From the NCBI GenBank assembly GCA_051294375.1, contig CM119270.1:99355-163354 (forward strand): a stretch of 64,000 nt of DNA. Direction: 5' to 3'. Positions 9,501 to 12,500 of the stretch are shown here, one piece after another (position 1 is the stretch's first letter; every line of letters starts with the position of its first letter). A program made the translations under genes and the position numbers. The notes beneath the pieces were generated by a model. It was not told where the DNA came from. It searched no databases and worked only from the letters and a program-made list of their open reading frames with translations. Origin of the DNA: Paraspadella gotoi. Lineage: Eukaryota > Animalia > Chaetognatha.

Positions 9501-12500
9501 TTTTCTATTTCTTTCTTTTGAGTCTTTCCGCTCATTCCTTTCTTTTCTTTCATTCCTTTCCTTTCATTGGTTTTATCCCCTTTCCTTCTTTTTCCTCCAT
9601 TTATCTCTCTGACCATTGAGATCAATTCAACTTCAAAGATAAAAAAAATATATTGTTGCGGCGATATTGATGACCTAGAAATATAATTATAATTATAGTT
9701 TTTAACTATATAAAATTTTAAATTTAAAATTATATTTTATATATTTATAAGTAAAATATAATAAATTCTATTGTATTATGACTAAATTTGTATTAGTCAG
9801 GAAGGGAACCTATATTAATGTCTTATATAATTAAAGGATAATTTCAAACAAGCATAAATATCTGAGTATTTTTTTCTTCTTTTTATTCTCTCACTACATG
9901 GTCCCCTTAAATATCCACTAATCCCAAATGATCACATCGTTAAAATGGAATTTAGACACACTTAAGTCGTTAATACGAAGTTTATTTTTTAATTCTTTCG
10001 ATAAAGGAAGATTTGCTATTTATTGATGTGCTATTTATAGATGACTGACGCCTCAATTAGAGAAAGGAACAAAATATAAATAAAAAATACTATATTAATA
10101 AGTTATTTTAAATTTAAATATAATAATATAACTAATCATATGAAATCGGTACAACTAATATAAGAATTCTCCATTCATTTATTAAATAAGCAAACTTCCC
10201 CTAACTTTGAACAGGCTATGATAGTTTAAGGCCTCCATCACTCTTAAAATATAATGACATTGTATAACCCTGCAAGCTTTTAATGAATTCTCTTTCTTTT
10301 AATGAAGTCTCTTTCTTTTAATGAAGTCTCTTTCTTTTAATGAAGTCTCTTTCTTTTAATAAAGTCTCTTTCTTTTAATGAAGTCTCTTTCTTTTAATAA
10401 AGTCTCTTTCGCAGTCAAATTTACTAATAAATATATATATATGTAAATATACTCTTAAATGTTATCTAATCTTGTTTAAACTCACTTTACATCATTTCCT
10501 CTTTCTCTACTTCAGCGACGACCGACCATCCAACGATGACAAAGAAGTCTGTCGAGACTATCTTCGCAATGTCTGCAAAAGGGGCAAGAAATGCAAATTC
10601 TTTCATCCAGATGGAGTTCCGCCTAAAACAGCAACAGAACTCATCTTCTGTCACGATTTTCAAAACAAAGAATGTGGAAGACAAAGATGCAAGTTTATCC
10701 ATTGCAGTCGGGAAGAGGAAGAGCATTTTAGACTGACTGGGGAGTTGAAACTGACTGAGGTGAGTTGAGAGGGAGAGAGAGAGAGAGAGAGAGAGAGAGA
10801 GAGAGAATGTGAAAAAAGCGCTCCATTTTAGAAAAAAAATGATTAAATAAAAAATAAAAACTCTACAGTATGGATTTCAAAATAAATAAATGACTTTTAA
10901 CTAGTGGTGTTTATAAATGTGAAATATATCTTGTTCATCCTAGTTGACCTTTTCAGACCAGTCTTTTCACCGTTCTCCTCGCTTTCTCGTTGCTTTCTTT
11001 TAGCCGAAAACCTCGTCACTTGTTTTTCGATCATAATCGTTTCTCTGGAAAAGATCAGCCTTCTGGAGCTGTCGGTTGCTGGAATAGGTCTAAGTCAATT
11101 CTAGGTCACTCAAGTTTAGGTCTAAGTCAAATCTAAGTCACTCAAACTTAATTAAGTCTGATTCAAGTCTAAGTAACTCAAGTTTAGGTCTAAGTCAAGT
11201 CTAGGTCACTCAAGCTTAATTAAGTCTGATTCAAGACTAAGTAACTCAAGTTTAGGTCTAAGTCAAGTCTAAGTTATTTAAGTTTAGGTCTTAGTCAAGT
11301 CTAAGTCACTCAATTTTAGGTCAAGTAGAAGTCACTCAAGCTTAAGTCTGATTTAAGTCTAAGTCACTCGAGCTGAGATTGACCATTGTTCTGGTTTTTT
11401 ATTAAGGGAAAGAAAATACATTTTAATTTTCAATTTTGTATGGTTCAGCTTAGGTTTCAATCAAATAAAATGTTTAAAATTAAAAAAAATGTTAATAACT
11501 TCAACCCTTAACTTATTAAATTAGTTAAATTGATCTTCTGTCATTAATCGATGCCTAAATTCATTTAAATTCTTTCTTCCTTTTTTCCTTTCCTTTGTCC
11601 TTTCATTATTTTTTTTCCTTTCCTTTGTCCTTTCATTACTTTTTTTCTCTTTCCTTTGTCCTTTCATTATTTTTTTTCCTTTCCTTTGTCTTTTCATTAC
11701 CTTTTTTCCTTTCCTTTGTCCTTTCATTTCTTTTTTTTATTTCCTTTGTTCTTTTATTACCTTTTTTATCTTTCCTTTGTCCTTTCATTACTTTTTTTCC
11801 TTTACACTTATGATCCAGTCGGTATAAGGGCATCGTGGGTTCTGAAGATCGAACTGAACCAGGCTTGAGGCTTTGTCCATGCCCCCAAGGCGGCTTACGG
11901 CCCGTTCCTCACGATTCCCGCAGGGTAGGTACCTGGTTCGGTATTGAACCCGCCGGTACCTAGTGGTCATGAGCTGATGGCTCTTACTCAATGAGCCACT
12001 GGGGTCACAACTGGAAGTGTCATGATTCTTGGCGGAGTGAACCTAGGCCAATGCCCAACTACATTGCCCCCCAGATTGTAACCCACCCGCTGCACTGCTT
12101 CCAGTGGAGGGGAGGGGAGCCATCTTCAGCTAGCACCAAGGGCCTGGAATCAGAAGGTTGGAATACGCTCGACAGGATGGGCTCACCAGTGTGGATAAGG
12201 CGCTACGTGGGCTGAAGATGACTGTCCGTAATTTCTATAACCCCCTCTAGCAGCCATGGAACGGGTCCCTGGGCTTGGAACCAAGGCTTGAGGGTTTGCC
12301 ATGCCCCCAAGGCGGCTTACGGCGTCCCTCACGCTTCCCGCAGGGTAGGTACCTGGTGTGTTGCGATTGACAACCCGGTACCTAGTGGTCATGAGCTTGA
12401 TGGCTTTACCTCAATGAGCCACTGGGTCACAAACTGAAAGTGTCATGATTCTTGGCGGGGCGGTGAACCGTAGCAATGCCCAACTACAGTCCTTTCATTA

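What the first reader, a model, noticed from the sequence alone, without database searches (positions are those of the whole stretch)
11813..12487. Tandem 425-bp tRNA(Met)-headed element with twister-like domain (retrozyme-like)
Seen on the minus strand: ~60 nt leader, tRNA-like head (4-bp D-arm, CTCATGA loop, B-box), then UAAGCCGC-[8-bp P3]-[6-bp P4 with GGUUCCAAGCCC]-...GAGGG, then a further long stem (12119-12131/12210-12222). Units are head-to-tail with the promoter internal, as in hammerhead retrozyme-type satellites such as schistosome Sm-alpha. The unit at 11813-12062 has a deletion removing L4 through GAGGG. Caveats: P2 (AGCC/GGCU) is separated from GA by 4 extra nt (GCUA), which is non-canonical but also present in the 28.8-kb copy, and the sequence looks noisy. 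It may be a new twister variant or an inactive derivative.
Basis: partly seen in the sequence, partly recalled or inferred. Interest (0 to 1): 0.8.

Follow-up and report, generated by a model that had tools for sequence, protein, structure and literature searches.

The report
Twister ribozyme inside tRNA-headed animal repeat
A very common short repeat in an animal genome begins like a tRNA gene and carries the core parts of a self-cutting twister RNA, which likely cuts well only when two neighbouring copies pair; the cutting itself is untested.

Summary
The element is real: 1.6 head-to-tail copies (12488-12064, 12063-~11810, minus strand) in a 30-bp minisatellite. Public contigs show a very high-copy family. 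Many copies run only from the tRNA-like head to 12190 (~240 bp, SINE-like); a longer ~410-bp form with the tandem junction also exists. The window's letters look error-laden.

In the majority letters it reads as type-P5: P5, P2, GAGGA, a 6-nt palindrome, UAA, P3, P4/L4, P5. The catalytic A and G and both pseudoknots are intact, and the GAGGA/UUCC pairing follows Rfam-confirmed phage P5 twisters. P1 is one pair plus a palindromic tetraloop, like the axolotl hammerhead that works as a dimer. P2 is bulged.

Against: Rfam score 14 versus 37.6, no unusual predicted dimer gain, inter-unit pairing 0.08, and no copy end seen at the cut site. Cleavage is untested.

Verdict: a Sm-alpha-like ribozyme SINE with twister instead of hammerhead, possibly dimer-dependent, possibly dead.

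The parts
12064..12488 (-). Unit 1, complete long form (425 bp in the window, ~410 bp in majority letters)
11810..12063 (-). Unit 2: leader, head, 5' half of the twister, internal deletion; ends within ~5 nt of the family's common 3' end
12441..12488 (-). Leader (12018-12063 in unit 2); family sequence of the long form; its first base is an insertion end here and in the copy at 60-169
12348..12440 (-). tRNA-like head: A-box-like 12421-12412, CTCATGA loop 12395-12389, B-box-like loop in a long GGTACC-closed hairpin 12382-12348; not a foldable tRNA
   Evidence: box consensus recalled
12261..12341 (-). Type-P5 twister-like domain: P5 3' strand 12341-12337, P2 3' strand 12334-12331, GAGGA 12330-12326 (GAGGG in the window), P1 linker 12325-12320, UAA 12319-12317, P2 5' strand 12316-12314, GC 12313-12312, P3 12311-12304/12294-12287, P4 around L4 12280-12273, P5 5' strand 12265-12261
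12320..12325 (-). P1 position: palindrome CGGCCG in majority letters (one pair plus palindromic tetraloop, or 6 bp between two units)
12318..12319 (-). Predicted cleavage site (U/A); 11897/11896 in unit 2
   Evidence: inferred from the twister consensus (PMC8501958 section 17)
12243..12255 (-).
12190..12200 (-). Common 3' end of dispersed copies at 12190; no poly(A) or simple-repeat tail seen
   Evidence: loose ends in X1, X2, X6
12064..12189 (-). 3' extension of the long form; holds the 3' arm (12130-12118) of the long stem with 12223-12211
11850..11856 (-). Deletion joint in unit 2 (7 nt in place of ~59 nt, from inside L4 to the long stem)
11581..11803 (.). 30-bp minisatellite flanking the insertion; continues at 12489-12664
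28790..28972 (-). Old, AT-drifted copy of the short form
   Evidence: E 2.9e-12
60..169 (-). Partial copy (leader plus head) closed by an inverted copy of the leader start, ATAT on both sides

Best explanation
This is a high-copy, tRNA-headed SINE-like repeat whose body holds a type-P5 twister core with P1 shrunk to a palindrome, which likely cuts weakly in a single unit and better when two tandem units pair. Shown: the head, the twister core in P5 order, a ~240-bp dispersed form and a ~410-bp form with a head-to-tail junction. Inferred: Pol III starts at the head; no T4 run lies in the unit, so tandem copies would give read-through multimers; the palindromes of two units would form a 6-bp P1 with swapped P2 and P5, cutting multimers to unit length. 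Single transcripts would mostly stay uncut, keep their promoter and be retroposed by a reverse transcriptase supplied in trans, which would explain why dispersed copies begin at the head. Separate odds: twister-derived ~0.9; P5 rather than P1 fold ~0.8; majority form cleaves at all ~0.55; dimer-enhanced ~0.4.
For: The pattern that retrieves phage type-P5 twisters (5 of 5 tested pass Rfam Twister-P5 gathering) hits the window once, 12330-12271, in 0 of 100 shuffles and 1 of 200,000 unit shuffles. A model built from 36 of them ranks this site first (18.4 bits, E ~0.001, rough). Majority letters at 12324-12326 (92-99% of depth in 4 of 4 runs) give GAGGA-CGGCCG-UAA. GAGGA goes with a UUCC loop in 9 of 80 phage twisters, GAGGG with UCCC in 68, mixed in 3. 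A 3-nt P2 5' strand is normal in that set (75 of 80 pair fully). A 5-bp P5 sits in natural register with pair probability 0.89-0.99, P4 0.81-0.95, in the isolated core. The dimer MFE holds the palindrome helix, swapped P5, P3 and P4. Precedent: axolotl HHR_Amex1 has one pair plus a palindromic tetraloop and cleaves far better as a dimer (PMC7229834, passages). P1 and P2 flaws are tolerated in type-P1 twisters (PMC11662667 section 32). Leader and 3' extension depths rise and fall together across X2, X5, X6.
Against: No cleavage or RNA data. Rfam gives 14 bits against 37.6, and both Rfam and my model misaligned UAA. P2 is imperfect: a C.C mismatch or a bulged C at the distal pair, a pattern seen in 0 of 80 phage twisters. 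The dimer gain is ordinary (-12.1 against -10.2 +/- 3.6 kcal/mol; 93 of 300 shuffles as low) and inter-unit P1 probability in a tandem fold is 0.08, inter-unit P5 0.02. The twister-dimer secondary structure lies 14 kcal above the MFE without pseudoknots, and a rival register takes up the T2 GC. A 6-mer is palindromic by chance 1 time in 64. P1 is dispensable in mini-twisters (PMC5408937, passage), so a dimer may not be needed. No copy end at the cut site among the loose ends shown (24 shown, 525 hidden). No array longer than 1.6 units was seen, and no shown contig has 31 laid letters on both sides of the junction.
Confidence: 0.42

Rival explanations
1. An ordinary tRNA-derived SINE whose body is a dead twister relic, for example taken from a LINE 5' end. 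P1 collapse and the P2 flaw were selected because cutting would remove the promoter; dimers come from template jumping or local duplication.
For: Depth runs on across the cut site in 4 of 4 runs and many copies have fixed SINE-like ends. The P2 pattern is absent from 80 phage twisters. Internal deletions through the core are common (joints). Kojima notes that a ribozyme behind a SINE head would cause 5' truncation (PMC5786205, passage). Twisters sit at 5' ends of Perere-3 in Schistosoma (PMC8501958).
Against: Catalytic residues, both pseudoknots, P3, P4 and P5 are all intact in the majority form, so decay would have had to spare them. The P5 order is not the type-P1 order of Perere-3. No partner LINE could be tested.
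Confidence: 0.3
2. The P5 twister cleaves as a monomer without needing a partner, and the family spreads Penelope-style: reverse transcription starts internally at the 12190 end on uncut RNA, giving partial tandems.
For: P1 is dispensable (PMC5408937; PMC11662667). In a lizard Penelope-like element, RT starts internally in an AC-rich stem-loop about 85-90 nt past the ribozyme cut, on unprocessed RNA (PMC11167929, main text); here the fixed end lies ~126 nt past the predicted cut in an AC-rich stretch. The insertion is a partial tandem in a minisatellite and one copy has an inverted arm (features in PMC8557442, passages).
Against: In the short form the linker is predicted to hairpin with the P2 5' strand. 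The inverted arm at 60-169 has the 5' (leader) end outermost, the opposite of the Penelope pattern for a sense template. No hammerhead on the sense strand.
Confidence: 0.14
3. One reading: a type-P1 twister variant using the downstream GAGGG with 4-5 extra nt after P2.
For: GCC/GGC is a perfect 3-bp P2 and the motif order is not seen in 100 window shuffles. Two phage loci (L086, L105) have a 3-nt P2 and 8-9 extra nt before GAGGG. L1 tolerates some insertions (PMC11662667 section 32).
Against: Flank features are ~50 times more likely by chance than those of the P5 reading. L263, the same locus as L086, misses Rfam gathering. No twister-P1 hit at E up to 10. The would-be general base varies and is broken at 28.8 kb.
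Confidence: 0.1
4. The twister likeness is chance in a GC-rich SINE body.
For: The domain does not fold better than shuffles (z -0.16 and -0.59); Rfam E 4.8.
Against: Ordered motif in 1 (strict) to 7 (relaxed) of 200,000 shuffles, before counting P3, P4, P5.
Confidence: 0.04

Closest known systems
Schistosome Sm-alpha / Sj-alpha SINE-like elements (PMC6765202 and PMC2770079, passages; the 1998 original not seen)
   Same: tRNA-derived head with internal promoter, followed by a self-cleaving motif; very high copy; tandem and single copies
   Different: Twister, not hammerhead; activity untested; dispersed copies here keep their head
Type-P5 twister ribozyme (Rfam RF02684), 3-bp-P2 phage subtype
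   Same: Order of parts, catalytic A and G, T1, T2, L4, P4, GAGGA/UUCC pairing
   Different: P1 is 6 nt, not a 14-30-nt hairpin; bulged P2; inside an animal repeat; below gathering score
Metazoan non-LTR retrozymes, esp. axolotl HHR_Amex1 (PMC7229834)
   Same: Unit size at the upper end of their range, head-to-tail junction, one pair plus palindromic tetraloop at the helix next to the cut
   Different: No type I hammerhead; GC 57% against under 45-50%; tRNA head; long arrays and circles not shown
Twister T-variants of Perere-3 (PMC8501958, sections 17 and 19, passages)
   Same: Twister in an animal retroelement with a weak P1
   Different: Those are type-P1 at the 5' end of an autonomous LINE and the cut marks the element's end; here the motif is internal and copies run across it
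SINEs with RTE-derived middle bodies (PMC5786205, passages)
   Same: tRNA head plus a structured body of possible LINE origin
   Different: The passages found do not mention twister; no partner LINE identified here

Membership tests
Twister type-P5 (RF02684) | Order GAGGR, NAA, GC, L4 loop | tested here: met
Twister type-P5 (RF02684) | General acid A, next A, general base G, T1 and T2 complementarity | tested here: met
Twister type-P5 (RF02684) | P4 stem (and optional P3, P5) | tested here: met
   P4 5 bp, P3 8 bp, P5 5 bp; no covariation data within the family
Twister type-P5 (RF02684) | P2 stem fully paired | tested here: inconclusive
   2 of 3 pairs, or 3 with a bulged C; pattern in 0 of 80 phage loci
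Twister type-P5 (RF02684) | P1 hairpin | tested here: not met
   6-nt palindrome; pair probability 0.0 in the monomer
Twister type-P5 (RF02684) | Rfam gathering score 37.6 | tested here: not met
   14 bits on the window's own letters; majority letters could not be scanned
Twister (any type) | Self-cleavage at N/AA | not testable with these tools
   bench test needed
Twister type-P1 | P2 3' strand directly before GAGGG, P1 closing the ends | tested here: not met
   4-5 extra nt, weak P1; no Rfam P1 hit at E up to 10
tRNA-derived SINE | A- and B-box-like head at the 5' end | tested here: met
   box consensus recalled; ARAGORN 0
tRNA-derived SINE | Many dispersed copies with shared ends | tested here: met
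   81, 68, 24 contigs stop at 12190; 16, 15, 5, 1 contigs share 13-20 letters before the head, then diverge
tRNA-derived SINE | A-rich or simple-repeat tail and target-site duplication | tested here: inconclusive
   no tail seen; a duplication cannot be read inside a minisatellite
tRNA-derived SINE | Pol III transcription; partner LINE | not testable with these tools
   no genome held; contigs only
Non-LTR retrozyme | Type I hammerhead in each unit | tested here: not met
   none on the sense strand; one GUAA-for-GAAA look-alike antisense
Non-LTR retrozyme | Two or more consecutive units with a complete ribozyme | tested here: inconclusive
   unit 2 is deleted; junction letters seen in X2, X5, X6 but no longer array
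Non-LTR retrozyme | Abundant linear and circular unit-length RNA | not testable with these tools
   no raw RNA reads offered
Penelope-type insertion | Partial tandem with inverted truncated arm | tested here: inconclusive
   partial tandem yes; one inverted arm, with the unexpected end outermost

The most novel reading that the evidence does not exclude
A natural dimer-dependent twister: a type-P5 twister whose P1 is a palindrome, so that only two tandem units of a Pol III repeat assemble active sites. Tandem loci would yield unit-length (possibly circular, cleavage-resistant) RNAs while single copies spread as intact SINEs, making this a twister-based counterpart of Sm-alpha and amphibian retrozymes.
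Probability: 0.3. Interest if true: 0.85.

Novelty: new variant of a known kind. Interest (0 to 1): 0.66.

Why it matters
Ribozyme-bearing animal repeats in the papers found use hammerheads, or type-P1 twisters at LINE 5' ends. A tRNA-headed repeat with a type-P5 twister would show that the ribozyme class is interchangeable. A palindromic P1 would be a twister parallel to dimeric hammerheads, and would answer how a SINE carries a ribozyme behind its own promoter without losing it. Descriptor searches built on type-P1 or on a P1 hairpin would miss this form. It is cheap to test. If it does not cleave, it is still a clear case of a SINE body derived from a ribozyme.

Tried and rejected
No genome is held, so copies, array lengths, target duplications and a partner element could not be counted. 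No RNA holder listed; X6 is only guessed to be RNA and all runs are contigs, so nothing is said on expression. No run held more than 0.17 of the words. Summed contig depth was not used as copy number. The metagenome scan for UAAGCCGC plus L4 gave 21 loci, none of this family, read as chance. Natural P5 twisters with a very short P1: 14 viral loci (11 distinct) and 40 prokaryote loci (2 of 40 with P2 of 2 or more pairs and P4 extended by 2 or more, neither palindromic) gave no clear parallel; 0 viral loci with a 6-nt all-G/C linker. The 14-30-nt P1 range is partly set by my filter: 14 of 94 parses were dropped for a weak hairpin or no P4 extension. Whole-unit folding is not unusual (z -1.95). 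HDV-like readings were looked at by eye and dropped. The match at 48903-48917 is low-complexity chance. My note that the copy near 83-130 starts at the head was wrong; it includes the leader. One search had T1 one column off; one search corrects it. Literature: 10 searches listed no paper on a twister in a tRNA-derived SINE or a natural dimeric twister; subscription papers and Repbase/Dfam are not covered, the original twister and Sm-alpha papers were not seen, PMC5785218 is not held, and no supplements were read (those of PMC11662667 and PMC8501958 list many animal twisters and could hold this family).

Full report
Setting. The window is animal DNA, rich in microsatellites. An exon of a ZC3H10 ortholog lies at about 10478-10765 on the plus strand (named hits at most 64% identical). 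The element lies 1 kb downstream on the minus strand, inside a 30-bp minisatellite that it interrupts cleanly. It is 57% GC against 24-31% in the flanks.

Observation. Unit 1 spans 12488-12064 and unit 2 12063 to about 11810; they are 86% alike over 218 columns. All listed motifs are present. Unit 2 has 7 nt in place of about 59. ARAGORN finds no tRNA and Rfam nothing at gathering score; the only hit at E up to 10 is Twister-P5, 14 bits, E 4.8. Two more copies lie in the window, at 28972-28790 and 167-80.

The family. Ten runs hold part of the stretch, nine of them one organism, none above 0.17 of the words. Laying four gave 2334, 2309, 944 and 234 contigs on one unit, so the family is very abundant and varied; depth sums are not copy numbers. 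Every indel row shown is an extra letter in the window (12 of 12 shown with 18 hidden; 11 of 11). I infer uncorrected long-read errors, so majority letters are the better guide. In X1, X2 and X6, 81, 68 and 24 contigs stop at 12190 and go on into unrelated sequence (agreement about 0.4; not among the rows shown for X5). At the other end, 16, 15, 5 and 1 contigs in X2, X5, X6 and X10 share 13-20 letters before the head and then diverge. That defines a dispersed form of about 240 bp. The leader and the 3' extension have depths that move together (X2 about 2e5 and 3e5, X5 1.4e4 and 2e4, X6 3e2 and 4.5e2, against heads of 3.9e5, 1e5 and 9.7e3), so they belong to one longer form. Loose ends at 12065-12068 read straight into the leader in 6 X2 and 2 X6 contigs, and three contigs in X2 and X5 cover 12064, so the junction exists outside this locus. 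No shown contig has 31 laid letters on both sides, and no longer array was seen. One X2 contig ends at 12063 and runs on 219 unlike letters, so the leader start is also an insertion end.

The ribozyme. Majority letters change the window at 12324-12326 (92-99% of depth, 4 of 4 runs) and mostly drop the extra letters at 12283 and 12267 (table 4 and loose ends). This gives GAGGA, the palindrome CGGCCG, UAA, GCC, GC, an 8-bp P3, a perfect 5-bp P4 with the L4 loop, and a 5-bp P5 between 12341-12337 and 12265-12261. For comparison I collected phage twisters by pattern. Of 94 distinct parses in P5 order with a 3-nt P2 5' strand, 80 had a P1 hairpin and an extended P4; 75 of those pair P2 fully, and GAGGA goes with UUCC in 9, GAGGG with UCCC in 68, mixed in 3 (pair counts on 36 of them). 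Five of five tested pass Rfam Twister-P5. The same pattern hits the window once (0 of 100 shuffles; 1 of 200,000 unit shuffles), and a model from those 36 ranks the site first at 18.4 bits, though with UAA misaligned. The P1 reading is not excluded: two phage loci have a similar insertion, though the one tested misses Rfam gathering.

Departures from canonical P5. P2 has a C.C mismatch or a bulged C at the distal pair, seen in 0 of 80 phage loci; the bulged form keeps the G-C pair found in 35 of 36. P1 is one pair plus a palindromic tetraloop. The same geometry in the axolotl hammerhead HHR_Amex1 gives poor monomer and efficient dimer cleavage (PMC7229834, passages). A large assay of type-P1 twisters found P1 and P2 flaws tolerated and catalytic or pseudoknot flaws not (PMC11662667, sections 32 and 35), and these latter parts are intact here.

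Mechanism. Inferred: Pol III starts about 18 nt before the A-box-like motif; the majority unit has no T4 run, so tandem copies would give multimers. Two units could pair their palindromes into a 6-bp P1 with P2 and P5 swapped, which amounts to a type-P1 twister with the rest of the unit looped out of P5. Single transcripts would stay mostly uncut and keep their promoter, which fits copies running across the cut site. Computation gives weak support only: the dimer MFE has the scaffold, but the dimer gain is ordinary (93 of 300 shuffles), inter-unit P1 probability is 0.08, and rival pairings take up P2 and T2; pseudoknots are not modelled. A dead relic in an ordinary SINE stays a strong rival, and a Penelope-style route with internal priming at 12190 is possible (PMC11167929 main text; PMC8557442 passages). 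Why three ends in the window fall at the leader start is unexplained.

Comparison. It is built like Sm-alpha (tRNA-derived head, ribozyme, tandem and single copies; PMC6765202 and PMC2770079, passages) but is not a member: no hammerhead. It is not a non-LTR retrozyme as defined (PMC7229834 passages; bioRxiv 10.64898/2026.07.22.740005, part 1 of 5 and passages). It is twister-derived but fails the P1-hairpin and Rfam-score tests for RF02684. PMC10085705 (passages) found no new twister permutations. Ten searches listed no twister-bearing tRNA SINE or natural dimeric twister; coverage is partial and no supplements were read. The Met identity of the head and the box consensus are recalled, not tested.

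Verdict. Observation confirmed; interpretation partly supported, with the fold revised to type-P5. New variant of a known kind; interest 0.66.

Noticed in passing
window 12207-12245 (+): Hammerhead-like core on the strand opposite the twister (CUGAAGA, GUAA in place of GAAA, 3-bp helix I). A relaxed descriptor finds such a thing in 71 of 5000 shuffles; weak and found after the fact, but ribozymes on both strands would be notable.
   Followed up: partly
window 56-173: Partial copy of the family with ~20-nt inverted arms made of the leader start and ATAT on both sides; looks like a Penelope-type inversion or a small TIR element.
   Followed up: partly
L086 (= L263) and L105: Phage twister-like loci with full P1 and P4, a 3-nt P2 5' strand and 8-9 extra nt before GAGGG; L263 misses Rfam gathering. 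Possible twister variant.
   Followed up: partly
L335-L420: Type-P5 twisters with a 3-bp P2 are common in phage contigs, often several per contig.
   Followed up: yes
L059, L078, L147, L157, L165, L173-L175, L178, L187, L195, L199, L200, L203, L204, L208, L209, L213, L216: A covarying hairpin motif near the ends of mostly 2-4-kb viral contigs: twister-like L4 loop, a second hairpin, then GAGGG, with GAAAUAA/GAAGUAA upstream. May be a permuted twister or another RNA; not scanned.
   Followed up: no
window 10478-10765 (+); weak second match 21211-21267: ZC3H10-like exon; the element lies antisense to it, so the host transcript would not carry the twister strand.
   Followed up: partly
window 33529-36219 (+): Exons that read like a mitochondrial dicarboxylate carrier (name recalled, not searched).
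   Followed up: no
window 12064-12488: The long unit begins TG and ends CA in majority letters, like an LTR; may be chance.
   Followed up: no
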